The notes beneath the pieces are model-generated. The model was not told the DNA's origin. It saw only the letters and a list, made by a program, of their open reading frames with translations, and made no database searches. From the NCBI GenBank assembly GCA_048213135.1, contig PS015370.1, positions 59,830 through 95,692 of the forward strand: a stretch of DNA of 35,863 nucleotides. Direction: 5' to 3'. This DNA comes from Reclinomonas americana ATCC 50394. Taxonomy: Eukaryota. The position numbers and the translations under genes were made by a program. This document shows positions 1-34,431 of this stretch, in pieces; the first letter of the stretch is position 1; each line of letters starts with the position of its first letter.

Positions 1-255
1 TTCTTCTTCTTCTTCTTCTTCTTCTTCTTCTGCTTCTCCTTCTCCTTCTTCTTCTTTCCTTCTTCTTGTTGTTTTGTTCTTGTTCTTGTTCTTCTTCTTC
101 TTCTTCTTCCCCTCCTCCTCCTTCTCCTCCTCTTCCTCTTCCTCTTCTTCTTCTTTTGTTCTTCTTGTTCTTCTTGTTCTTGATCTTCTTCTTTATCTTC
201 TTCTTCTTCTTCTCCCTCTTCTCCCTCTTCTCCTCCTCCTCCTCCTCCTCCTCAC
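1..255. repeat. (TTC)/(TCC) low-complexity microsatellite, intronic
   Basis: Directly visible trinucleotide runs. Confidence 0.95.
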
Positions 256-290
256 CCCCTTCGTCACCCCCTTCATCCACCAACCAACAG

Positions 291-2026
291 GGCAACCGCT
301 GAGCGCTCTTGACGGCGTGCCAATGTGCATCAAGGACAACTTCTGCGTGCAGGGGCAACCCACCAGCGCCGCCTCGCGAATCCTCTCCAGTTGCGCTCGC
401 GCCTCGTCGGTCTCCTCGGACGCACTTGTCGCTCACGAATGTTGTGCGCAGAGTGGGTGGCGCCCTACACGGCCACGGCGTGCGAGAGATTGCTGGTGGG
501 TGGCGGCGCCGTGCTCATTGGCAACAATAATATGGATGAATTTGGCATGGGGTGCGTTTTCCTTCTGCCCCCCACACTGTGTGCTGGTCAGCAACTCATC
601 TCCACCCCGCAGCAATGCTGGTGTGAATTCGGCCTTTGGGCCCACGCGAAATCCGCTCTCTGCCGATCTGGTGGCTGGCGGCAGCTCCTCGGGAACGGCC
701 GCGGCTGTCGCGGCGCACACGGCGTTCATGTTGCGTGTGTGTGCTCCATCAACAAGGCTGCTGGGTGGCAAACTCACAATTGACGTCGACGATAGAGGTC
801 TGTGCAGCGACACGGGCGGTAGTGCGCGACAGCCGGCCGCCTTGTGTGGGCTCGTCGGTTTCAAACCCACGTACGGTCGCGTGAGTCGGCACGGTCTGCT
901 GGCGTACGCCTCCTCGCTCGACTGTCCGTCGTTGATTGCGCGATCGGTGGCCGACGTGCGGGTGGCGTTTGGTGAGTCGCGCCTGCCTCACCTCCTTCCC
1001 TTCTCCTCTTCATGTCTCCTGGTGTCAGATCTCATCAAGGGCGCCGACGGCCTCGACCCCACATGCTACACTCCTGCCACACCCAGCACTCCGCATCCGC
1101 TGCCGGCGACTGGCGGAAAACCACTCGAAGGTCTCGTGGTCGGTATCCCGCTCGAGTACAGCATCGAGGAGTTGTCGGCCGAGGTGCGCGCGGCGTGGGA
1201 GTCGGCGGCAATGCGTCTCATGAGTCTTGGCGCGACGATTCGCCACGTGTCCCTGCCGCACACGCCGTACGCACTGGCGGCGTACTATGTGATTGTGTGC
1301 GCGGAGGTGTCGTCGAATCTGTCGCGTTTCGACGGCGTACGATTTGGTGCGTACGGCGTTCTCGAGCAGCCGTCTCGTGCTTCTCCGTGCTCATTGGTTG
1401 TTGCAGGCTCCGCTCCCGTGATCGACGACACCAAAGGCGACGCAGCGCCGCGCATGGACTACACTCAATTCGCCAAGACCACGAGGTCGCAGGGCTTTGG
1501 GCCGGAAACCATCCGCCGCATTCTGGCCGGCACGGCTGTGCTCTCTGTCGAGTTGTGTATTCTCTGCTTCCTTCGCGAGTACCGATGTCATCTCACCCTC
1601 CCCAACCCTATGGTGTGCAGTTCGTATGACGCCTTTTTCCGCCAGGCACAACGTGTGCGTCGGCTGGTGGCCGACGATTTTGGTGCCGTCTTCGCCGCCG
1701 GCGATGAGCACGTGGATGTGTTGCTGACGCCTGTGACACCGCGCTCCGCCGTGTCTGTCGCCGATGCGGCGCGAGAAGCATCCTCGGATCCCACCCGAGG
1801 CTACGACTTTGACGTATTCACAGTGCCTTCGAGCCTGGCGGGTGAGTCAGTGTGTTTCTGGCCAAGTCCTCTTCCTGCATCGTCGTCATTTCTCTCACGG
1901 CGATGTGCAGGATTGCCAGCGATCAGTGTGCCCACAGGAGGCACGCCAGTGGGCATGCAGCTGATTGGCCCGCGAGACAGCGATGAGTGGCTCCTGCAAG
2001 TCGCCGAGAGACTCACGTGCTCGTAA
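291..2026 (+). CDS. QRSL1: Glutamyl-tRNA(Gln) amidotransferase subunit A, amidase signature family, probably mitochondrial; 5'-partial, spliced
   Basis: Motifs LDGVPMCIKDN, NMDEFGMG, GGSSSG, SDTGGS-RQPA, GFKPTYGRVSRHGL, E-SSNLSRFDG, GFGPET-RRI, DVFTVPSSLAGLPAISVP. Introns inferred from GT-AG and frame: 390-451, 552-612, 730-795, 972-1028, 1347-1406, 1552-1620, 1842-1910. Bases 1-290 look like the pyrimidine-rich end of an upstream intron (CAG at 288-290). Confidence 0.93.
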
Positions 2027-10853: not shown

Positions 10854-11883
10854 AAACAGCAGCAGCAGGCGTCGTCTGGCAGCGGACTGCCCTTCTGGGC
10901 TCAGCGGCCGTGATCGGTCAAGGGGGTGGAGTTTCTTTCGAGGCGTGTGTGTGATTCGTCGTAGGTGGATGTGGTGGATGTGGTGAGAAAGTGAGCGAGA
11001 GGGAGACGAGTAAAGAGTGCACATGCGTGAGTGGGGAACGTGAGAGAGGCAGTGGCGGTCTCCTCATTGCCGCAGTTTTTCGTGTATGCCTTCGATCCCT
11101 TCCGACAGAACTCGGCAACACTCATCACGGAGGCATCGCCGTTTCGCGGCGATCTCATGAACAGTTGCGTTTGTGTGGAGGGGTAGAATAGCACGTCTTT
11201 ATCTCTGCTGACAGTTCTGCCTCAGGCGGGCAAGCTGCTCAGGTTTCCCCTTTCATCTCTCCGTCACTCCGCGCGACCAGATATATTGGTGGAGCGCTGC
11301 AATTTGGCTGCGTGAGATGCACGATGATGTGAGTGATCGCTGATTGTCATGGCGATGGCAGTCAATCGTGGTCACCCCCTTTGGCAGTTGGGATACGAAA
11401 GTTCGGAACAGGAGCCGAACAACACACTTGCCAGTGGTTTACCAAGTCGGCGAGTGAGGTGGCTGCGCGTTGGTACAATTTATCAACTGCCAGCGAGCGA
11501 AAAGATTCGATTCCTCAACGCACGGTGTCGGAGCGCTCGCACAACCTTCCACTGCGGCGCAACGTGCCTCACCCTCTCATTGCGTGTCACTGGTGAGTGA
11601 TGCAACCACACATATTGTCACAGCACTACTTATTATTGCGCATTGATTGCGGCAATGTGCGAAAACACAGTCATTATCATCACACTGCGCACACATACTG
11701 CATGATGACTGAAAAGACAGGCACCACGGCACTCGCTCGTCACTACACACACAGCAGCACTCCCAATCTAGCACATCATTTGTGCTTAGAGACATCAACA
11801 GGGGCAAGTGTTGGTTGTGTGGTGCACATGCATGTCTCCTCACACTCTCGATTTTTCCGCTTTTCATGGCTCATTTTTTGTGC

Positions 11884-11920
<37 letters not shown>

Positions 11921-11988
11921 CGTGCGTGTGTGTGTGTGTGTTTGCAATGCATACCAGCTCTCGTGCGTACCCGGTTTAGTAATCAACA

Positions 11989-14900
11989 ATGAGCTCCAAG
12001 GCAACCAAGTTGATGATGTCATGGACCAGCGTATTTGCCGCACTGGTGATGCTGGCGGCCATTGTCGTGGTGGTGACACCCGTCAGCGTCCGTTGCGTTG
12101 AAACGCGGACATGTACACATCTCATCTCCTAACAAACTGATTGTATGTTCACTTGTGAATAGGCGGACAAGCTGCGCCCACTTGCTCCGCCACTCCGCAC
12201 GAGTCGAAGCGCATTTGGTGGTCCGTCGCCTCCAATGCCGACGGCACCAAGCTGGCGGCCGTCGTCGAGTTCGGTCGCATCTACACCTCCACCGACTCGG
12301 GTGCGACATGGACGCCGCACGAGTCGGAGCGATACTGGGTCAGTGTGGCCTCCAGCAGCGACGGCACCAAGCTGGTGGCCTGCGTGTACTGCAACGGCAA
12401 CATCTACACCTCTACCGACTCGGGCGTGACGTGGACGCCGCGCGCCTCAATGCAAGCGTGGTCGGCGGTGGCCTCCAGCGCCGATGGCTCGAAGTTGGTG
12501 GCTGTGGCCGTGGGTGACTCGATATACACCTCCGCCGACTCGGGGGCGACATGGACGCCACGCGATTCTCATCGTCAGTGGGTCGCTGTGGCCTCCAGTG
12601 CCGACGGCGCCAAGTTGGTGGCGGCGGTGCGCGACGGTGCACTCTACACCTCTACCGATTCGGGTGCGACGTGGACGGCCCGCGACTCCAGTCGCCCTTG
12701 GGTCGGTGTGGCCTCCAGCGCGGACGGCACGAAGCTGGTGGCCGTCACTCACGGTGGCCAGATCTACACCTCCACCGATTCCGGTGCGACGTGGATGGCA
12801 CGCGAGTCGGCGCGGTTGTGGCGGTCAGTGGCCTCCAGCAGCGACGGGTCGAAGCTGGTGGCCGCGGTCGGCAACGACAAGATCTACACGTCGAGTGACT
12901 CGGGTGAGACGTGGACGGCAGTCGATTCGAATCGCAACTGGTTTGCGGTGGCCTCCAATGCCGACGGCAGCAAGGTGGTGGCGAGTGTGTACGACGGTCA
13001 GATCTTCACGCTGGACGTCAGCACGTGCTCCGGTGCAGTACAAGTGTGCTCCGGTCACGGCGCACTCAATTCGAGTGATGGCTCATGCAAGTGCGATGCT
13101 GACTATTATGGTGCCTCATGCAACGTGCACTGCGTGGCTGCCACCACGTGCTCTGGTCACGGAACGTGCAAGACTGACGGCACGTGTGTGTGCACGGGCG
13201 ATTACACCAATGCCAGCTGCAACTGCAGTCCCACTGCCACGTGCTCTGGCCACGGTACATGCAAGACTGACGGCACGTGTCTGTGCACGGGCGACTACAC
13301 CAATGCCAGTTGCAACTGCAGTCCATCGGCGACGTGCTCCGGTCACGGTACATGCAAGACTGACGGCACGTGTCTGTGCACGGGCGACTACACCAATGCC
13401 AGCTGCAATTGCAGTCCGACCACCACGTGCTCGAGCAATGGAACGTGCAAGACTGACGGAACATGCAACTGTTCAAGTCCGTGGAGTGGTGAGTGATACA
13501 GTTGTCACTTTTCGCAGTTGCTGTGGACTGGTAGCTGATCATTAGATTGGTATCGCGTGCAGGATCCTCGTGCTCGACCTGCTCTGCTGACACAGTTGTT
13601 GCTCTTGGATACATTGGCAAGTGGCAGGCTGTGGCCTCCAGCACTGACGGCACCAAGCTGGTGGCTGTGCTGAACCCTGGTTTCATTTATACCTCCACGG
13701 ACTCTGGCGCGACATGGACTGCTCGAGCCACAGATGCCAATCGCTCCTGGAAGGGAGTGGCCTCCAACAGTGACGGCACCAAGTTGGTGGCCGCAGCAAG
13801 CAACAACACAATCTACACCTCCACTGATGCTGGCGTGACGTGGACGGCTCAGGCCACTGATGCCAGTCGCAACTGGAGTGCAGTGGCCTCGAACAGCGAC
13901 GGTACCAAGCTGGCGGCAACAGAGAGCGGTGGTCAGGTGTACACTTCTGCGGACTCTGGCGTGACGTGGACACCTCGTGATTCGAACCGGTCGTGGACCT
14001 CAGTGGCCTCCAGCAGCGACGGGACCATGCTGGTGGCCGCGGCAAGCAACAACACAATCTACACCTCCACGGACTCTGGCGTGACGTGGACAGCTCAGAC
14101 CACTAATGCCAATCGCAACTGGACTGCAGTGGCCTCGAATAGCGACGGAACCAAGGTGGTGGCGACTGTGAACGGGGGTCAGGTGTTCACGTCTGCTGAC
14201 TCTGGCGTGACTTGGACACCGCATGATTCGAATCGCGCGTGGGTGTCGGTGGCCTCCAGCAGCGACGGCACCAAGCTGGTGGCGACGGTGAACGGTGGCC
14301 AGGTTTACACGTCCGCTGACTCGGGCACGACATGGACGGCTCGGGCCACTGATGCCAGTCGCTCGTGGAAGGCAGTGGCCTCCAGCAATGACGGCACCAA
14401 GCTGGTAGCCGTTGCGACAGGCGATCAGATTTATACCTCCACTGACTCTGGCGTGACGTGGACAGGAGTGACCCAACCTCTGCAGCTGACAAATTCGTGG
14501 CAGCGTGTGGCCTCCAGCAGCGACGGCACCCGGCTTGTCGCTGCGGCGAATGTTCTTCCGATTTACACCTCCGCTGACTCTGGTGCAACGTGGACACGTC
14601 GCGATTCCAGTGGTAGCCGCAGCTGGAGCGCACTGGCCTCGAGCAGTGACGGTACCAAGCTGGTGGCTGCGACGAGCAACAGTCGCATTTACACTTCCGC
14701 TGACTCGGGGGCGACGTGGACCCAGCGAGATTCGAATCGCTCCTGGACCGCAGTGGCCTCCAGCAGTGACGGCACCAAGTTGGTGGCAGCGGCGAGCAAT
14801 GACAAGATCTACACCTCTGCTGACAGTGGTGCGACGTGGACGGCTCAAGCAACTGACGCCAATCGCAACTGGATTGGAGTGGCCTCCAGCAGCGACGGCA

Positions 14901-15313
14901 CCAAGTTGGTGGCCGTTGTGAATGGCGGCCAGATCTACACCTCCACCGACTCTGGCGCAACGTGGACGGCTCGAGCGACTGATGCCAATCGCAACTGGAT
15001 CGGAGTGGCCTCCAGCAGCGACGGCACCAAGTTGGTGGCCGTGGTGAATGGCGGCCAGATCTACACCTCCACCGACGCTGGAGCAACGTGGACGGCCCGC
15101 GAGTCGAATCGTGCCTGGGTGTCGGTGGCCTCCAACAGTGACGGCACCAAGCTGGCGGCCGTGATGACCAGCGGCCAAATGTACGTCTCCACCGACTCGG
15201 GCGCAACGTGGACGGCTCGTGATTCCAGTCGCCAGTGGACATCAGTGGCGTCCACCAGTGACGGCACCAGGCTGGCGGCCACTGCGAGTCTGGTGTACGT
15301 GTTCCCGTGTTGA
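11989..15313 (+). CDS. Secreted protein of about 1059 aa: signal peptide, 7-blade Asp-box/BNR-like beta-propeller, 5 EGF-like repeats, then 14 further blades (two propellers); copy 1
   Basis: Exons 11989-12091, 12163-13488, 13563-15313 are frame-compatible. Hydrophobic N-terminus (SVFAALVMLAAIVVVVTPVSVRG). The 40-42-aa repeat W--VASSSDGTKLVA----GQIYTSTDSGATW contains the Asp-box S-D-G-TW. Cys repeats CSGHGTC--DGTC-C---Y----C. No C-terminal TM or GPI-like tail. Confidence 0.88.
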
Positions 15314-15522
15314 TCTGTGCCCTTTCCTCGTTCTTTTCTTGCACATTGCAGCTGTCTCTTTTCATGCGATTTTTTCACCACCTGCCGGCACACGCTGTGC
15401 TTTCCCTTTTGTCATCGAGCGTCAATCCGTGACTGCCATTAAAGCCTCGTTCTTGCAACGCCGGGAAACGTCAAGGACGCGTCCTTTCCCTCTTGTCCTC
15501 ATTCATTTGATCGTCCACGAGC

Positions 15523-15921
15523 ATGGGCTTCCTCCGCTCCTTCTTCGCCGCCATGCTCTCCCTCCTCGTGGCCGCACTGGTCACCTCCGCCGTCGAATCC
15601 ATCAACACCACCGTGCTGTTCCCGATGCCGGAGGAAGTCGCCCGCGTCATGGCCGAGCTGCGCACACAACACACCGATCTGGCCATGGACAAGCTGCGCG
15701 AGTGGATCGCCACATTGCCGGCACTGGCCCTGTGCATTGTGTTGGTGGGGCATGCAGCTGGTGCCAGTGCAGCCGGCCTCACTCTGCGGTGGGTGGCGCC
15801 CGGCAGCTCCGCCTACTTTGGACTGTTGCCGGTGCTGGTGTTGGTCATTGGAGGTTGGTGTGCATGCAGGAATCTTCTTGATCGTCTTTGGTGATCCGCG
15901 CTCATCTCCACGCAACAGCCG
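15523..15921 (+). CDS. Small multi-pass membrane protein, copy 1; 3' end probably in the gap after intron 15854-15918
   Basis: MGFLRSFFAAMLSLLVAALVTSAVESINTTVLFPMPE...WIATLPALALCIVLVGHAAGASAAG...FGLLPVLVLVIG has three hydrophobic segments; a GT...CTCAT...CAACAG intron precedes the gap. Confidence 0.72.
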
Positions 15922-15942
15922 NNNNNNNNNNNNNNNNNNNNC

Positions 15943-16030
15943 TTCTTCTTCTTCTTCTTCTTCTTCTTCTTCTTCTTCTTCTTCTTCTTCTTCTTCTTCT
16001 TCTTCTTCTTTTTCTTTTTCTTCTTCTTCC
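15943..16030. repeat. (CTT)n microsatellite
   Basis: Directly visible. Confidence 0.95.
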
Positions 16031-17115
16031 GTCTTCTTCGTCTTCTTCTTTCTGTTTTTCTTCTCCTCACTCTTCTCTTTTTGCCACGGTCGCGCGCAAG
16101 GCCGCCACCACCTCCGCCTCCTCGCGCAGACAAGGTGGATTGACTTCTTCTTTTTCTTCTTCGCCCCCGCTTTTCTTTTTTCGCCACTGTCCGTGGTGGA
16201 CAGTGCAACGTGAGAGAGGCAGTGGCGGTCTCCTCATTGCCGCTGTTTTTCGTGTATGCCTTCGATCCCTTCCGACAGAACTCGGCAACACTCGTCACGG
16301 TGGCGTCGCCGTTCCGCGACGACCGCATGAACAGTTGCGTATGTGTGGTGGGGCACTGTTATTCGCCGCCGATCTGACTGTTCAGCAGCAGGCGGATAAC
16401 ACGTCACTCCAACGACTCAGTTTGGTGAGTGGCGCAGCGGTCTCCATCGAGGATGATGGCGGCAGCGGAGCTCGGTGTCGTCGCTTTGTAGCTGTGCGAA
16501 GTGCGTACATCGAATGACAATGTGCGTTGATTGGTCGTGTGATCTCAATCATGATCACTCTCTGTGCCAAAGTTAACGTTCGGATACGAGCCGAACAACA
16601 CAGCGCTGCGCTGGTTTATCAAAGGCAACCAGTGAGGTACGGCTTCTTATAACTTGGCCCCCGAGAGGGAATACGCAGCAGATTCGCGAGCATTGTGCGG
16701 CCAGACTCGATATCTTCACCGCTGCCCACAGCCTGTGAGCGCTCACTTCGCTCTCCACTGCAGTGCAACAGGCCTCGTGGTATCTTTGCGTGTGACTGGT
16801 GAGGAATGCGACAACACACATCGCAGCACTGCACTGCAGTGTGCGCGAAATCACAGTCTTGATCACGCACATGCTGCTGTGCACGCACGCTTTGTGTCTG
16901 TGAGAGCAGACAGAGATCACCTACACTCAAAACAAACATATGCGCACATGATCGTGTCGCCACTTGTGCAGATGGGGATGTCAACATTATGTTGTGTGGA
17001 TGCCTCTCTCGTAACGGCCACCCTGATTTCGCGCGCTTTTCGTTTCTCACCCCACGCGTGTGTGTGTACATGATTGCAGCGCTTGTGTGCATCCGCACTG
17101 CGATTGCAGTGAACA

Positions 17116-20100
17116 ATGAGCTCCAAGACAACCAAGGTGTCGATGACGTGGACCGGTGTGTTTGCCGCGGTGGTGTTGCTGGTGGCCATGTCCGCGGTCA
17201 GCGTCCGTTGCGTCTCTTTGTACATGTGATACACAGAAGCGGTCACTTGTACATGACCTCCTCGGCACTGGCAAGCAGTCGTCTTACTCATGCGGGTCAT
17301 CCACGTGTGTGAACAGGCGGACAAGCCGCACCCACTTGCTCTGCCGCCGCTCACGAGTCGAAGCGCATTTGGTGGTCCGTCGCCTCCAATGCCGACGGCA
17401 CCAAGCTGGTGGCCGTGGTCGAGTTCGGTCGCATCTACACCTCCGCTGACTCGGGTGCGACGTGGACGCCGCACGAGTCAGATCGCTACTGGGTCAGTGT
17501 GGCCTCCAGCAGCGACGGCACCAAGCTGGTGGCCTGCGTTTACTGCAACGGCAACATTTACACCTCTACCGACTCGGGCGCGACGTGGACACCGCGCGCT
17601 TCGACGCAAGCGTGGTCGGCGGTGGCCTCGAGCGCCGATGGCACCAAGCTGGTGGCTGTGGCTGTCGGTGACTCGATCTACACCTCCACTGACTCTGGGG
17701 CGACGTGGACCGCACGCGAGTCTCATCGGCAGTGGGTTTATGTGGCCTCCAGCAGCGATGGTGCGAAGTTGGTGGCCGTGGTGAATGGTGGCCAGATCTA
17801 CACTTCCTCTGATTCTGGCGCGACGTGGACGGCCCGCGACTCCAATCGCCCGTGGTCGGCTGTGGCCTCCAGCGCGGATGGCGCCAAGCTGGTGGCCGTC
17901 ACCCACGGTGGCCAGATCTACACCTCCACTGATTCCGGTGCGACGTGGACGGCACGCGAGACGGCGCGGCTGTGGCGGTCGGTGGCCTCCAGCAGCGACG
18001 GATCGAAGCTGGTGGCCGTGGTCGGCAACGACAAGATCTACACGTCGAGCAACTCGGGCGTGTCGTGGACGCCGCGCGACTCGAATCGCAACTGGTTTGC
18101 CGTGGCCTCCAACGCCGACGGCACGAAAGTGGTGGCGAGTGTGTACGATGGTCAGCTCTACACGCTGGACGTCAGCACGTGTGCGCCGTGCTCGGGTCAC
18201 GGCACGCTGAACAACGACGGTTCGTGCTCGTGCTCGGGCGACTACACCAATGCCACTTGCAACTGCAGTCCCAGCCTCACCTGCTCCGGCCACGGAACGT
18301 GCAAGCCTGACGGTACGTGCCAGTGTGCCACTAACTACTACGGTGTTTCGTGCAACGTGAACTGTGTGGCGGCGGCGACGTGCTCGGGCAACGGAACGTG
18401 CAAGGCTGACGGTACGTGCCAGTGCACGGGCGACTACACCAATGCAAGCTGCAACTGCAGTCCCAGCATCACGTGCTCTGGCAACGGAACATGCAAGGCT
18501 GACGGTTCATGCAAATGCAACAACAACTATTACGGTGTTTCGTGCAACGTGAACTGTGTTTCGGGCACCACATGCTCTGGCAACGGAACATGCAAGGCAG
18601 ACGGTACATGCCAGTGTAATGCCAACTATTACGGTGCATCCTGCAATGTGAACTGCGCGGCGGCGACGACGTGCTCGGGTCACGGTGCGTGCAAGCCAGA
18701 CGGTACATGCCAGTGCACTGGCGACTACACGAATGCGAGCTGCAACTGCAGTCCCACTGCGACGTGCTCTGGCCACGGTACATGCAACACTGACGGCACG
18801 TGCCTGTGCACGGGCGACTACACCAATGCCAGCTGCAACTGCAGTCCCACCACCACGTGCTCGAGCAATGGAACGTGCAAGACTGACGGAACATGCAACT
18901 GCTCGAGTCCGTGGAGTGGTGAGTGATACATTTGTCACCTTTCGCAGTTGCTGTGGACAGGCAGCTGATCATAAGTTTGGTATCGCGTGCAGGATCCTCG
19001 TGTTCGACCTGCTCTGGTGACACAGTTGTTGCTCTTGGATACATTGGCAAGTGGCAGGCAGCGGCCTCCAGCACTGACGGCACCAAGCTGGTGGTCGTTT
19101 ATGCTGGTGGCTATGTCTACACTTCCACGGACTCTGGCGCGACATGGACGGCTCGTGCCACGGATGCCGTTCGCACATGGAAGGCAGTGGCCTCCAGCAG
19201 TGACGGCACCAAATTGGTAGCAGTTGTTGGTAGTTCTTCTGCCACTGGTCAGATCTACACCTCTGCAGACTCAGGTGTGACGTGGACAGCTCGAGCCACC
19301 GATGCCAATCGCAGATGGAGCGGTGTGGCCTCGAGCAGCGACGGTGTCAAGCTGGTGGCGACGGTGACCAATGGTCAGGTGTACACCTCCGACGACTCTG
19401 GCGTGACTTGGACAGCACGCGATTCGAACCGGTCGTGGACCTCAGTGGCCTCCAGCAGTGACGGCACGAAGCTGGTGGCTGCGCTCGAATTTGGCAAGAT
19501 CTATACCTCAACTGATTCCGGCGCTACGTGGACAGCTCGACTTACAGATACCGACCGCGCGTGGAGATTTGTGGCCTCCAGCAGTGACGGCACCAAGCTT
19601 GTGGCTGTGATGAATTCTGGTCCGATTTACACCTCCACTGACTCCGGCGTCAACTGGACGACCCGCGATTCCAGCCGATTCTGGAACGGAGTGACGTCGA
19701 GTAGCGACGGCACGAAGCTGGTCGCCACTGTGAACAGTGGTCAGATTTACACTTCTACAGATTCTGGCGCAAACTGGACAGCACGTGAGTCCTCTCGGCC
19801 GTGGACTGGAGTGACCTCTAGCAGCGACGGCACCAAGTTGACAGCTGTGGCAACTGGCGATCAGATTTATACCTCCACTGACTCTGGCGTGACGTGGACA
19901 GGAGTGACCCAACCTCTGCAGCTGGCGAATGCATGGCGATCTGTGGCCTCCAGCAGTGACGGTACCCGACTGGTGGCTGTGGCGAATGTTCTTCCGATTT
20001 ACACCTCCGCCGACTCGGGCGCCACATGGACACCTCACGAATCCAGCGGTCGCCGCAACTGGATTGCAGTAGCCTCGAGCAGTGACGGTACCAAGCTGGT

Positions 20101-20743
20101 GGCTGCGACGAGCAACAGTCGCATTTACACCTCAACTGACTCGGGGGCGACGTGGACCCAGCGAGATACGAGTCGCTCCTGGACCGCAGTGGCTTCCAGC
20201 AGTGACGGCTCCAACCTGGTGGCCACGGTGAACAATGGTCGAATTTACACCTCCACCGACTCCGGCGTCAACTGGACCCAGCGCGATTCGAATCGCGTCT
20301 GGACCGGAGTGGCCTCCAACAGCGACGGCACCAAGCTTGTGGCAGTTGTTGGTAGTACCGGTGGTCAGATTTATACGTCTACTGACTCGGGTGCGACGTG
20401 GACGGCTCGTGATTCGAATCGCGTCTGGGCCGGAGTGGCCTCCAGCAGTGACGGCACCAAGTTGGTGGCCGTGGTGAATGGCGGCCAGATCTACACCTCC
20501 ACCGACTCTGGCGCAACGTGGACGGCCCGCGAGTCGAATCGCGCCTGGGTGTCGGTGGCCTCCAACAGTGACGGCACCAAGCTGGCGGCCGTGATGACCA
20601 GCGGCCAAATGTACGTCTCCACCGACTCGGGCGCAACGTGGACGGCTCGTGATTCTGACCGCGGCTGGGTATCGGTGGCGTCCACCAGTGACGGCACCAG
20701 GTTGGTGGCTGCAGCAGATCAGGTGTACGTGTTCCCGTGTTGA
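17116..20743 (+). CDS. Secreted protein of about 1147 aa: signal peptide, 7-blade propeller, 8 EGF-like repeats, 14 blades; copy 2
   Basis: Exons 17116-17206, 17317-18918, 18993-20743; same intron positions and architecture as copy 1. Confidence 0.88.
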
Positions 20744-20964: not shown

Positions 20965-21360
20965 ATGGGCTTCCTCCGCTCCTTCTTCGCCGCCATGCTC
21001 TCCCTCCTCGTGGCCGCACTGGTCACCTCCGCCGTCGAATCCATCAACACCACCGTGCTGTTCCCGATGCCCGAGGAAGTCGCCCGCGTCATGACCGAGC
21101 TGCGCACACAACACACCGATCTGGCCATGGACAAGCTGCGCGAGTGGATCGCCGCACTGCCCGCACTGGCCCTGTGCATTGTGTTGGTGGGGCATGCAGC
21201 TGGTGCCAGTGCAGCCGGCCTCACTCTGCGGTGGGTGGCGCCCGGCAGCTCCGCCTACTTTGGACTGTTGCCGGTGCTGGTGTTGGTCATTGGAGGTTGG
21301 TGTGCATGCAGGAATCCTGATCGTCTTTGGTGATCCGCGCTCATCTCCACGCAACAGCGG
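20965..21360 (+). CDS. Small multi-pass membrane protein, copy 2; 3' end probably in the gap after intron 21296-21357
   Basis: Two amino-acid differences from copy 1 in exon 1 (MAEL/MTEL, IATL/IAAL); an alternative in-frame ATG lies at 20959. Confidence 0.72.
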
Positions 21361-21419
21361 NNNNNNNNNNNNNNNNNNNNGCTCTTCTCCATGTTCTTGT
21401 GCTGCCGCACTCTTCTCTT

Positions 21420-32265: not shown

Positions 32266-34431
32266 TTTCTTCTCTTTCGCACCTCCTTCCCTCTCTTCTC
32301 TTGTCTCATTCTGTATCTTGGTCTGCTGTCTCTGCAGTCTGTCCCTCTCTCTCCCTCTTCTCATTCCTCTCTTTCTCTTCTCACTTCTCTCCGTTTTCTT
32401 CTCTTTCGCACCTCCTTCTTGCTTATCTCACGCTTTATCTCGCACTGCCTCTGCAGTCTCTACCTCGCCCCCTCTCTCTCTTCACTTCCTAGCCCCTTGT
32501 TCCTCTCCTTGCTCTGTTCTCTTCTCTCCTCTCTCTCTGTGCTCTCTTTTCTCGTTCATGCTGCCTTCCCTCTTGCTTGTCTTCCTGAATGTCTCGCGCT
32601 CTCGTTCGCATCTTTCCATGCTTTCTTGCATTCTCGCTTTTCTTCCCTTCGCTTGCTCTCCCCTCCATCCTCTTTCCTTGCATGCTGCATTCGCCTGATG
32701 CGGGGTCGTGTGCCAATTTTGTTTATTGGTGTGTCGCTTGTGTAAGGTGTGCCTGTTCATGTCGAAAATCGTGCGTTTCTTCATTGGTGTTGAGTTCTCT
32801 CCTTACTGTCGCCTCTCGCTCTCACGCGTCGCGTTTGCACCTGTTGCTTCCCCTTCCTTCTCACCCTTCGCTTCCCCTCTTCTCTTCCCTCGTTCGCTTC
32901 CCTCGTTCGCTTCCCTCGTTCGCTTCCCATTTTCTCCCCTTTGCTTCCCCCTTTGCTTCCGCCTTCCCCCCCTTTGCTTCCCTCTTTGCTTCCCCATTTC
33001 TCACTGTCCTCCCACCAGTGAATCCCCTCGACGTCGCCCGCGTCCGGATGCAAGTCGACAAGATACCCGGCACATCCACCTTGGTTCGCTCGATGCCTCC
33101 TGTCTCTTTGCATCTTTATCTTTCCACTCATCGTTGCATGCAGAGCGTCATGGCACAACTGCTGCGCGCGGACGGACCGCGCAGCTTGTATCGCGGCCTT
33201 GCGCCATCGCTAATCATGTCGCTGCCGGCGACCGGCTTCTACTTTACGCTGTACGAGACGCTGCGCGATCGGTTGCACGCGGCACAGATTGGCGGCAGCT
33301 ACGCACCGCTGCTGGCCGGCGCCACCGCCCGCACCATCACCACCTTCCTCACGTGTCCATTCGAGGTGCTCCGCACACGCCTGCAGTCGCAGTCGGGTGT
33401 GGAACTGGCCAAGGGGCTCGACATTCTGAGACTCGCCGTCAGTCGCAACGGCGTGCTCAGCCTGTGGACCGGCTTGGTGCCGACATTGATTCGTGATGTT
33501 CCATTTAGGTTTGTCTTGGGTTAATGTCATCTCTCTTTCTCTGCTCGTCACTCTGCTCCCTCCCCCTGTCGCTCTGCTCCCTCTCCCAGTCGCTCTGCTC
33601 CCTCTCCCAGTCGCTCTGCTCCCTCTCCCAGTCGCTCTGCTCCCTTTCCCTTGTCACTCTGCTCCCTCTCCCAGTCGCTCTGCTCCCTCTCCCAGTCGCT
33701 CTGCTCCCTCTCCCAGTCGCTCTGCTCCCTCTCCCAGTCGCTCTGCTGCTCTCTCTCTTTCTCTCTTCTCCTCTCTCCCAGTCGCTCTGCTCCTCTCCCA
33801 GTCGCTCTGCTCCTCTCCCAGTCGCTCTGCTGCTCTCTCTTTCTCTCTTCTCCTCTCCCCTTGTCGCTCTGCTCCCTCCCCCTCTCCTCCCTTTCCCTTC
33901 CTTCGCTCTCCTCCGCTCACCCCCCTTCTCCCTTTTCACCCCCTCCCGCAGTGCAATCTACTGGCTCGGCTACGAGTGGATCAAGGCCGGCGTGCATCGC
34001 ATCTCCTGGTGGCCCTCCGAATCGACCATACTGACGCCGTTTGTGGCCGGCGCCGTCTCCGGCAGCATCGCCGCCCTCATCACACTGCCAGTGGACGTCA
34101 TCAAAACGCTGTCGCAGTCGCAAATGGAGGTTTGTCGTGGGACGCTTTCTGCGCATTTGTTTCTGTGACTGACAGACATCGCAGGGTGATCGAGCGACAA
34201 AACGAACGCCCATGCAACACGCCAGGCATCTGTGGAAGGAAGAGGGCTTCCGCGGGTTCACGCGTGGCCTCGGGCCACGACTGCTGCGAGTGGCGCCGAG
34301 TTGTNNNNNNNNNNNNNNNNNNNNNNNNNNNNNNNNNNNNNNNNNNNNNNNNNGCCGTCACAATAGGTGTTTTTGAGATTGTCAAGAACCTACTGATTCA
34401 GCACGACGCATTCCGCGTCTCGCGAGAATGA
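31493..34431 (+). CDS. Mitochondrial carrier (SLC25), SLC25A39/40 / Mtm1-like
   Basis: Three carrier repeats NPLDVARVRMQ, CPFEVLRTRLQ and LPVDVIKT; SLYRGL-PSL-MS-PAT-FYFT-YE; LWTGL-PTL-RDVPFSAIYW--YE; RG--PRL-RVAPSCA. Exons 31493-31513, 31581-31950, 33019-33083, 33144-33508, 33952-34129, ~34186-34431 (with a small N gap). Confidence 0.88.
32160..32262. repeat. (CT)n microsatellite in the ~1.07-kb pyrimidine-rich carrier intron
   Basis: Directly visible. Confidence 0.95.
33545..33880. repeat. 21-bp minisatellite GTCGCTCTGCTCCCTCTCCCA in a carrier intron
   Basis: More than ten exact or degenerate tandem units visible. Confidence 0.9.

What the first reader, a model, noticed from the sequence alone, without database searches (positions are those of the whole stretch)
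11989..20743. Paralogous secreted triple-propeller proteins with a fixed scaffold and hypervariable loops: candidate diversified recognition system
Seen: two adjacent paralogs share the layout signal peptide - 7 blades - EGF stalk - 7+7 blades. The scaffold (VASSSDGTKL, IYTSTDSG-TW) is nearly invariant. Differences cluster at two places per blade: around the first Trp (SWKG/TWKA, NWSA/RWSG, NWTA/AWRF, AWVS/FWNG, SWKA/PWTG) and in the loop after KLVA (VLNPGF/VYAGGY, ASNNT/VGSSSATGQ, ASNNT/LEFGK, VNGGQ/MNSGP). The middle propeller is the most diverged, while the N-terminal propeller is much more conserved. Established: in beta-propellers the loop entering strand A and the B-C loop lie on the same top face, the usual ligand-binding surface. 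Inference: a variable binding protein (prey or pathogen recognition, adhesion or self-recognition) with a conserved head joined by an EGF spacer to variable heads.
Basis: partly seen in the sequence, partly recalled or inferred. Interest (0 to 1): 0.75.

Follow-up and report, generated by a model that had tools for sequence, protein, structure and literature searches.

The report
Tandem secreted triple-propeller genes, patchily homogenised
Two neighbouring protist genes encode secreted proteins built from three Asp-box propellers and an EGF stalk, and their differences fit ordinary loose constraint on binding-face loops plus patchy DNA copying rather than a diversified recognition system.

Summary
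Two tandem, intron-bearing genes (11989-15313 and 17116-20743) encode proteins of 1059 and 1147 aa. Each has a signal sequence, 7 Asp-box (BNR) blades, 5 or 8 EGF modules, and 14 blades modelled as two 7-bladed propellers. Differences cluster at top-face positions: 108 of 333 against 45 of 497 scaffold sites, p 3e-17.

The "diversified recognition" reading is not supported.
- dN/dS is 0.41 in the variable class and 0.12 in the scaffold. Only the three residues flanking the first Trp reach about 1 (0.89, interval 0.49-1.65); none is shown above 1.
- The same positions vary in 899 blades of mostly bacterial or metagenomic homologues (rho 0.83). Print already describes a variable top face as a general trait of Asp-box propellers.
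- The "diverged middle propeller" has saturated synonymous sites too (dS per blade 0.09 to above 3).
- Seven of 21 blade positions are replaced: in at least one gene the nearest relative is another blade, not the positional partner.
- Copy-to-copy identity runs from 64% to 100%, including an intron.

This points to gene conversion between copies and between blades. An earlier scan note (e1-1142619) reported blade-to-blade copying in a bacterial propeller protein. The genome could not be searched for further paralogs. The likely function, extracellular binding, is inferred.

The parts
11989..12091 (+). Gene 1 exon 1: start codon and hydrophobic N-terminal signal sequence
   Evidence: Similarity between the two copies begins 4 nt before the ATG. 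The hydrophobic stretch was read by eye from the translation; no signal-peptide predictor was run.
12092..12162 (+). Gene 1 intron 1, donor GTTGCGT, acceptor AG
   Evidence: This is the only GT that restores the frame. Gene 2 has the same donor. Earlier scan notes report this shifted donor class in the same genome.
12189..13025 (+). Gene 1 propeller 1: seven Asp-box blades of 40-41 aa
   Evidence: AlphaFold gives pLDDT 94-98 with four strands per blade.
13026..13488 (+). Gene 1 EGF stalk: 5 six-cysteine modules; the last cysteines lie in exon 3, up to about 13585
   Evidence: Pfam EGF_Teneurin E 7.4e-19 and EGF_2 E 3.5e-12. Module count. Model confidence here is low, pLDDT 50-65.
13489..13562 (+). 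Gene 1 intron 2 (GTGAGT...CAG), 94-95% identical to the gene 2 intron
   Evidence: Non-coding DNA as conserved as the exons beside it points to gene conversion.
13592..14494 (+). Gene 1 propeller 2: blades 8-14, the most diverged part
   Evidence: Blades 9, 11, 12 and 13 have another blade, not their positional partner, as nearest relative.
14495..15313 (+). Gene 1 propeller 3: blades 15-21 and the stop codon. Blade 21 has three strands; I infer the fourth comes from the linker after blade 14.
   Evidence: Positions 15113-15225 are identical in both copies.
15523..15894 (+). Co-duplicated small ORF of 123 aa with hydrophobic segments; no known family
   Evidence: The tract is 96-99% identical to its copy-2 counterpart (21-base offset), untranslated upstream DNA included. 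No Pfam or NCBIfam match. Five weak hits among 1.84 billion representatives, none at E 1e-10 or better.
17116..17206 (+). Gene 2 exon 1: start codon and signal sequence
17317..18918 (+). Gene 2 exon 2: propeller 1 (7 blades) and an EGF stalk of 8 modules
   Evidence: Pfam EGF_Teneurin E 2.1e-28 and Sortilin-Vps10 E 1.2e-13. Module count.
18993..20743 (+). Gene 2 exon 3: propellers 2 and 3 (14 blades) and the stop codon
20965..21333 (+). Copy 2 of the small ORF
15922..15941 (.). Assembly gap of 20 N after copy 1. A matching gap lies at 21361-21380 after copy 2.
   Evidence: Both gaps fall at the same relative place, so the number of copies in the array is not certain.

Best explanation
These are two functional tandem paralogs of a secreted, non-enzymatic extracellular protein. 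Three seven-bladed Asp-box (BNR) propellers are held on a stalk of EGF modules. Most likely it is a binding or adhesive protein that uses the propellers' top faces.

Two ordinary processes explain how the copies differ. First, purifying selection is strong on the repeat scaffold and weak on the top-face loops. That constraint profile is shared by the whole family, bacteria included. Second, the locus has a mosaic history. It is an old duplication (the promoter region, intron 1 and the 3' UTR no longer align well). Gene conversion between the two copies has re-homogenised parts of it. Copying between blades within a gene has overwritten single blades.

Shown: gene structure, fold, clustering of differences, dN/dS below 1, the mosaic, and blade replacement. 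Inferred: secretion, a binding function, and the direction and timing of the conversions.
For: Both reading frames are intact, with overall dN/dS 0.23.

By class, dN/dS is 0.41 (bootstrap 0.31-0.55) in the variable class and 0.12 (0.08-0.17) in the scaffold. In the 14 blade positions treated as orthologous (positional partner nearest, except gene-1 blade 10, rank 2) the values are 0.37 and 0.175. In the six most recently homogenised blades they are 0.36 and 0.21.

dS per blade ranges from 0.09 to 3.37 and rises together with dN.

In 100-nt windows, copy-to-copy identity runs from 64% to 100%. Intron 2 is 94-95% identical. The 3' flank is 96-99% identical, untranslated DNA included.

Identical runs of 154, 113 and 111 nt exceed the largest run (88) in 2000 permutations.

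The positional partner is the nearest relative for only 28 of 42 blades. Gene 1 blade 11 is closest to its own blade 9 (87%), blade 12 to blade 10 (84%), blade 17 to blade 9 (83%) and blade 18 to blade 19 (92%). Positional identity of blades 11, 12, 13 and 17 (63-72%) equals the background between unrelated blades (70 +/- 5%).

Per-position entropy of the window's own blades tracks that of 899 blades from 196 homologues (Spearman 0.83, p 3e-11). The two consensus blades match at 33 of 40 positions (consensus lines).

Quistgaard and Thirup 2009 describe a conserved bottom face and a variable, functional top face for Asp-box propellers in general (passages).

Against an enzyme: blades are a minimal 40-46 aa with no insertions and there is no FRIP motif, and no NCBIfam model reaches its cut-off.
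Against: W-1, W+1 and W+2 evolve at about the neutral rate (pN/pS 0.92, 1.16 and 0.97). Combined dN/dS is 0.89, interval 0.49-1.65. Positive selection at these sites is therefore not excluded.

Two sequences and a counting method have little power to detect site-limited or episodic selection.

Blade shuffling is itself part of the diversification mechanism of the fungal HNWD genes (abstract).

No binding, secretion or expression data exist. The signal peptide was judged by eye only.

Only two copies could be examined, and the matching assembly gaps leave the array size open.
Confidence: 0.7

Rival explanations
1. The locus belongs to a diversified recognition repertoire. Top-face residues are driven apart by positive selection, and blade shuffling supplies new combinations, as in the fungal HET-E/HET-D (HNWD) WD-repeat genes.
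For: Differences concentrate on the top face. Three positions per blade around the Trp have pN/pS near 1, with 14, 11 and 6 different residues across 42 blades. Blades are exchanged within and between the genes. The genes are tandem duplicates and the EGF stalk length varies, 5 against 8 modules. Earlier scan notes report tandem variable WD40 propeller arrays elsewhere in this genome; I did not check them.
Against: No site class has dN/dS above 1. The B-C loop is at 0.35 and the D-A linker at 0.45. Bootstraps of the whole variable class never exceed 1.

The same variability profile is seen in 196 mostly bacterial or metagenomic homologues.

Within gene 1 the copying makes loops more alike: blades 9 and 11 share the loop ASNNT, and the loop VNGGQ recurs in several blades.

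Blade number is fixed at 21 in both genes. Only two copies are seen in the window. Word and sequence look-ups of the scan's notes on this genome returned no other Asp-box genes.
Confidence: 0.12
2. The proteins are secreted glycoside hydrolases. The two C-terminal propellers would form a GH74-like cleft, or the propellers would be sialidase-like.
For: The best fold matches of the C-terminal model are GH74 xyloglucanases (5jwz E 6e-26, and 6p2o, 2cn3, 5fkq). The best sequence matches in the PDB are the same enzymes (2cn2 E 1e-11). The NCBIfam 'F510_1955 family glycosylhydrolase' model scores 154 bits.
Against: That NCBIfam score is below its cut-off of 175. Identity to GH74 is 15-18% and TM-score only 0.46-0.49. 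Non-enzymatic tandem WD40 propellers fit as well or better (5i2t TM 0.73).

Blades are a minimal 40-46 aa without the insertions that build catalytic clefts, and there is no FRIP motif.

Catalytic residues of GH74 were not mapped.
Confidence: 0.08
3. The tandem pair is an assembly artefact. Two divergent haplotypes, or copies from elsewhere, were placed head to tail by scaffolding.
For: Gaps of 20 N follow each copy at the same relative position (15922-15941 and 21361-21380). The 3' flanks are 96-99% identical.
Against: The copies differ by 15% of nucleotides and by three EGF modules. Most of the roughly 950 nt between each unit start and its ATG gives no BLAST match; only about 150 nt at the unit start (93%) and the last 4 nt before the ATG match. 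The unit upstream of gene 2 is continuous with the end of copy 1 apart from the gap. Even if misplaced, they would still be two distinct genes.
Confidence: 0.07

Closest known systems
Consensus-like multi-propeller Asp-box (BNR) surface proteins of bacteria (Pfam Sortilin-Vps10 PF15902, BNR PF02012, DUF6242_C PF25852; often labelled 'photosystem II stability/assembly factor-like')
   Same: The blade is the same 40-aa unit. The window's consensus blade matches the homologue consensus at 33 of 40 positions and has the same per-position variability. Local identity is 45-70%. Several seven-bladed propellers sit in one secreted chain. An earlier scan note on such a bacterial protein also reports copying between blades (e1-1142619; not checked here).
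   Different: Here the genes are eukaryotic, with two spliceosomal introns. The propellers are joined by protist-type EGF modules rather than Ig-like or cadherin-like domains. No protein with this layout appeared among the 120 listed hits or the 95 hits.
GH74 xyloglucanases (PDB 5jwz, 6p2o, 2cn3, 5fkq)
   Same: Two tandem seven-bladed Asp-box propellers in one chain. They are the best Foldseek and PDB sequence matches.
   Different: Identity is 15-18% and TM-score 0.46-0.49. GH74 blades are irregular with long loops forming a catalytic cleft; here the blades are minimal and regular. No enzyme signature was found.
Fungal HNWD/NWD genes (HET-E, HET-D): WD40 repeats with concerted evolution and four positively selected top-face positions (Paoletti et al. 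2007, PMC1805685, abstract read)
   Same: A highly regular propeller scaffold, repeat units exchanged within and between loci, and variable residues on the top face.
   Different: The propeller superfamily differs (Asp-box, not WD40). The proteins are secreted, not cytoplasmic NLR-like. No dN/dS above 1 was found. Blade number is fixed. Only two genes are seen.
Sortilin / Vps10-domain receptors and Ycf48/HCF136
   Same: All are Asp-box propellers. Pfam Sortilin-Vps10 and PSII_BNR models match above their cut-offs. Ycf48 structures match at E 3e-8 to 2e-5.
   Different: Vps10 domains are ten-bladed, carry a 10CC module and sit on a membrane-spanning receptor. Here the propellers are seven-bladed, with no 10CC and no C-terminal anchor. 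The NCBIfam Ycf48 equivalog scores 44.5 bits against a cut-off of 326.

Membership tests
Asp-box (BNR) beta-propeller superfamily | Repeated S-x-D-x-G-x-T-W motif forming the hairpin between strands 3 and 4 of a four-stranded blade | tested here: met
   The motif sits between strand C (IYTS) and strand D in the model. It is present in 19 of the 21 blades of gene 1; blades 7 and 21 are truncated. Gene 2 is the same except that blade 6 reads SNSGVSW. Pfam BNR and BNR_6 also match.
Asp-box (BNR) beta-propeller superfamily | Blades close into a propeller | tested here: met
   AlphaFold pLDDT is 94-98 for the N-terminal seven blades and 88 on average for the C-terminal 14. Foldseek matches two-propeller proteins with probability 1.00. 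These are predictions, not solved structures.
Sortilin / Vps10-domain receptors | Ten-bladed propeller followed by the 10CC cysteine-rich module, a transmembrane helix and a sorting tail | tested here: not met
   The units have seven blades. EGF modules stand in place of 10CC. The protein ends directly after blade 21.
GH74 glycoside hydrolases | Two seven-bladed propellers | tested here: met
   Fold matches at E 6e-26 to 1e-23.
GH74 glycoside hydrolases | Catalytic acidic pair in an inter-propeller cleft built from long loops | tested here: inconclusive
Minimal 40-46 aa blades and 15-18% identity argue against it.
GH33 sialidases | FRIP / RIP motif and six-bladed catalytic propeller | tested here: not met
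   Neither protein has an [FYW]R[IV]P or RIP motif. The units have seven blades.
Ycf48/HCF136 | Single seven-bladed propeller matching the equivalog model | tested here: not met
   NCBIfam PRK13684 scores 44.5 bits against a cut-off of 326. The protein has three propellers plus EGF modules.
HNWD-type diversifying repeat genes | Concerted evolution of repeat units within and between loci | tested here: met
   For 14 of 42 blades another blade is nearer than the positional partner. Identical runs exceed all 2000 permutations.
HNWD-type diversifying repeat genes | Positive selection (dN/dS above 1) at top-face codons | tested here: not met
   The variable class is at 0.41 and top-face sites over 19 nearest blade pairs at 0.42. 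The three Trp-flanking sites give 0.89, interval 0.49-1.65. Power is low with two genes.
HNWD-type diversifying repeat genes | Large gene family with variable repeat number | not testable with these tools
   No genome is held. Two copies are seen in the window, each with 21 blades.

The most novel reading that the evidence does not exclude
The two genes could be the visible part of a larger, lineage-restricted family of secreted triple-propeller receptors. The propeller module is of bacterial type and is mounted on a protist EGF stalk. The three unconstrained residues around the first Trp of each blade would set ligand specificity: 63 sites per protein, ringed around an almost invariant Arg. 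Blade-to-blade and copy-to-copy conversion would reshuffle them. That would be an extracellular Asp-box counterpart of the fungal HNWD repeat-shuffling system.
Probability: 0.1. Interest if true: 0.6.

Novelty: new member of a known kind. Interest (0 to 1): 0.25.

Why it matters
As it stands this is an ordinary case with a useful lesson. In repeat proteins a 'fixed scaffold with variable loops' is the default constraint pattern. A 'conserved head and variable heads' can be produced by gene conversion alone, so synonymous divergence and blade-level phylogeny have to be checked before calling a diversifying system.

Two points have modest interest. The domain layout (Asp-box propeller, EGF stalk, two Asp-box propellers) was not found in the protein searches run here. 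The protist's blades are strikingly close to bacterial ones, which raises the question of how this module entered a eukaryote. If a larger family with selected top-face residues were found, it would be a new type of extracellular recognition repertoire in a protist.

Tried and rejected
- Whole-genome paralog census: not possible, because no genome is held for this window.
- Scan notes. The sequence look-up returned one note, from another genome. The two word look-ups, limited to this genome, listed no Asp-box genes. This is weak negative evidence, since only noted stretches are indexed.
- Search for the same architecture. In one search (proteins longer than 777 aa, 2252 of 8000 scored candidates at E 0.001 or better, 120 listed), none lists an EGF family. 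In one search (EGF region, 95 of 2654 candidates), the hits were protist EGF proteins (Naegleria, Acrasis, Anaeramoeba, EukProt or MMETSP transcripts). Two (P0282, P0290) combine Kelch, EGF and DUF6242_C. None has this layout.
- ESM Atlas: best score 0.80, below the level the tool treats as evidence, and only short BNR fragments.
- Cluster look-up of three top hits: no informative names.
- NCBIfam: every match below its cut-off.
- Sialidase motif search: none found.
- Small co-duplicated ORF: no family and five weak hits only.
- Literature. Three searches found no paper on a protist protein with this layout or on the function of the consensus-like DUF6242-type propellers. That covers only the library held here.
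- Considered and rejected: a Vps10-type sorting receptor (wrong blade number, no membrane anchor), and pseudogenes (both frames intact, dN/dS 0.23).
Full report
WHAT IS THERE

The window is eukaryotic DNA. The long propeller reading frames are interrupted at the same two places in both copies by short introns.

| | Exon 1 | Exon 2 | Exon 3 | CDS | Protein |
|---|---|---|---|---|---|
| Gene 1 | 11989-12091 | 12163-13488 | 13563-15313 | 3180 nt | 1059 aa |
| Gene 2 | 17116-17206 | 17317-18918 | 18993-20743 | 3444 nt | 1147 aa |

Each gene has a single terminal stop. Intron 2 has an ordinary GTGAGT donor. Intron 1 restores the frame only if it starts GTTGCGT. Earlier notes of this scan report that donor class as common in this genome; here it is used identically in both genes. 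Similarity between the copies starts 4 nt before the ATG, which supports the start codon.

The N-terminus has a lysine-bearing head and a hydrophobic stretch of 17-20 residues. I read this by eye as a signal peptide; no predictor was run. The protein ends right after the last blade, with no membrane anchor.

ARCHITECTURE

Each protein has 21 blades of 40-46 aa. Seven come before the EGF region and 14 after it. The EGF region has 5 six-cysteine modules in gene 1 and 8 in gene 2.

Pfam finds Sortilin-Vps10 (E 1e-13 to 2e-33), BNR, BNR_6, PSII_BNR, EGF_Teneurin (E 7e-19 and 2e-28) and EGF_2.

AlphaFold models:
- The N-terminal seven blades have pLDDT 94-98. The EGF part is a low-confidence string of short hairpins.
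- The C-terminal 581 aa has mean pLDDT 88.1 and pTM 0.72, with a confidence dip at the linker after blade 14.

The best Foldseek matches of the C-terminal model are proteins with two tandem seven-bladed propellers. These include the GH74 xyloglucanases (5jwz, E 6e-26), 2ymu, 5i2t (TM 0.73) and 1nr0.

THE CLUSTERING IS REAL

The proteins are 82% identical over 1045 aligned codons.

In the model, strand A is KWxxVAS, strand B is LVAxxx, strand C is IYTS, the Asp-box is the C-D turn, and strand D is followed by a 7-9 residue linker to the next Trp.

| Position | Sites that differ |
|---|---|
| W+1 | 9 of 21 |
| W+2 | 8 of 21 |
| End of strand B plus B-C loop | 38 of 125 |
| D-A linker | 44 of 145 |
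| Invariant scaffold sites (W, S, D, G) | 0 of 21 each |

Overall the variable class differs at 108 of 333 sites and the scaffold at 45 of 497 (odds ratio 4.8, p 3.2e-17). Restricted to the 14 blade positions treated as orthologous, the counts are 47 of 217 against 25 of 329 (p 4e-6).

Quistgaard and Thirup 2009 (PMC2716378, passages) define the top face as the one holding the N-terminal ends of the inner strands and loop 2-3.

WHY THIS IS NOT EVIDENCE OF A DIVERSIFIED RECOGNITION SYSTEM

1. dN/dS is below 1. I used Nei-Gojobori counts with bootstrap over codons.

| Site class | dN/dS | Bootstrap 95% interval |
|---|---|---|
| Whole gene | 0.23 | |
| Variable class | 0.41 | 0.31-0.55 |
| Scaffold | 0.12 | 0.08-0.17 |
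| B-C loop | 0.35 | |
| D-A linker | 0.45 | |
| Variable class, orthologous blades only | 0.37 | |
| Top face, six most recently homogenised blades | 0.36 | |

A per-position count over 19 independent nearest-neighbour blade pairs covered 38 blades; the truncated blades 7 and 21 were left out. Only W-1, W+1 and W+2 came near neutrality, with pN/pS of 0.92, 1.16 and 0.97. Combined dN/dS for these three is 0.89, interval 0.49-1.65. Those three sites are unconstrained. Positive selection on them is neither shown nor excluded.

2. The pattern is family-wide. Homologues are very numerous and, where named, bacterial (Verrucomicrobiota, Acidobacteriota, Planctomycetota, candidate phyla). In one search, 6545 of 8000 scored candidates had E 0.001 or better. 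In one search, 2252 of 8000 did.

I extracted 899 blades of exactly 40 aa from 196 of the 243 proteins fetched. Their per-position entropy correlates with that of the window's own 22 such blades (Spearman 0.83, p 3e-11). The two consensus blades agree at 33 of 40 positions.

Quistgaard and Thirup had already described this as a general property of Asp-box propellers: a conserved bottom face and a highly variable, functional top face.

3. The regional contrast follows synonymous divergence.

| Region | dS | dN |
|---|---|---|
| Propeller 1 | 0.34 | 0.066 |
| EGF stalk | 0.73 | 0.079 |
| Propeller 2 | 0.75 | 0.187 |
| Propeller 3 | 0.37 | 0.099 |

Per blade, dS runs from 0.09 (blade 20) to 3.37 (blade 12).

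A nucleotide alignment of the whole duplicated unit shows 100-nt windows from 64% to 100% identity. Intron 2 and its flanks are 94-95% identical. Positions 15113-15212 are 100% identical. The 3' flank 15401-15900 is 96-99% identical, untranslated DNA included. The roughly 950 nt between the unit start and the ATG, intron 1 and the 3' UTR align poorly.

Identical runs of 154, 113 and 111 nt exceed the longest run (88) in 2000 permutations. The longest run of identical third codon positions in exon 3 is 37, against a permuted mean of 15.3 and maximum of 37. This is the signature of an old duplication with patches of gene conversion.

4. Blades have been replaced. For 14 of 42 blades the positional partner is not the nearest relative. 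Within gene 1:

| Blade | Nearest blade | Nucleotide identity |
|---|---|---|
| 11 | 9 | 87% |
| 17 | 9 | 83% |
| 12 | 10 | 84% |
| 18 | 19 | 92% |

Blade 4 of gene 2 is nearest to blade 18 of gene 1 (84%).

Positional identity at blades 11, 12, 13 and 17 (63-72%) equals the background between non-homologous blades (70 +/- 5%). In gene 1 the copying has made loops more alike: ASNNT occurs twice and VNGGQ several times. That is the opposite of diversification.

LIKELY FUNCTION (INFERRED)

Both genes are under purifying selection and so are probably functional. The regular, minimal blades, the lack of a FRIP motif, sub-threshold enzyme models and low similarity to GH74 (15-18% identity, TM 0.46-0.49) argue against an enzyme.

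The most likely role is a secreted or surface-associated binding protein that presents three propeller top faces on an EGF stalk. The ligand is unknown. An Arg at W-2 is kept in 36 of 42 blades and is also the consensus in bacteria. It may be structural, or part of a common binding ring.

WHAT STAYS OPEN

- No genome is held, so family size is unknown.
- The 20-N gaps after each copy, at the same relative place, mean the array could hold more copies than were assembled.
- Searches of the scan's notes returned no other Asp-box genes in this genome. This is weak negative evidence.
- The same domain layout was not found in the protein collection or in three literature searches. These searches are limited, and the window's own proteins are not in the collection.

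VERDICT

The structural inference is right. The locus is an ordinary, if neat, example of tandem paralogs of a repeat protein evolving by relaxed constraint on loops plus gene conversion.

Noticed in passing
window 15523-15894 and 20965-21333: A small ORF of 123 aa with hydrophobic segments is duplicated together with each propeller gene. The two copies lie in a tract that is 96-99% identical, including untranslated DNA upstream. It has no Pfam or NCBIfam family. Only 5 weak hits turned up among 1.84 billion representatives, none at E 1e-10 or better.
   Followed up: partly
window 12092-12098 and 17207-17213: Intron 1 of both genes starts GTTGCGT after an exon ending in C. Earlier notes of this scan report this one-base-shifted donor class elsewhere in the genome. 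Here the reading frame requires it in both paralogs.
   Followed up: partly
window 12189-15310 and proteins P0001-P0243: The protist's consensus blade matches the consensus of mostly bacterial or metagenomic homologues at 33 of 40 positions, and local identities reach 60-70%. No named eukaryotic homologue of the propeller part appeared among the listed hits. A bacterial origin of the module is possible, but no phylogeny was built.
   Followed up: no
window 15922-15941 and 21361-21380: Assembly gaps of 20 N follow both tandem copies at the same relative position. Each is next to long T-rich or CT-rich simple sequence (about 15942-16100). The true copy number of the array is uncertain.
   Followed up: no
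window 11880-11950: A (GT)n microsatellite lies roughly 40-110 nt upstream of the gene 1 start codon. BLAST found no counterpart at the matching place upstream of gene 2.
   Followed up: no
window 2-2026 and 32589-33524: Other genes in the window include an amidase-family ORF (Pfam Amidase, E 9e-73) and a mitochondrial carrier (E 1.4e-32). Several further long ORFs have no family match.
   Followed up: no
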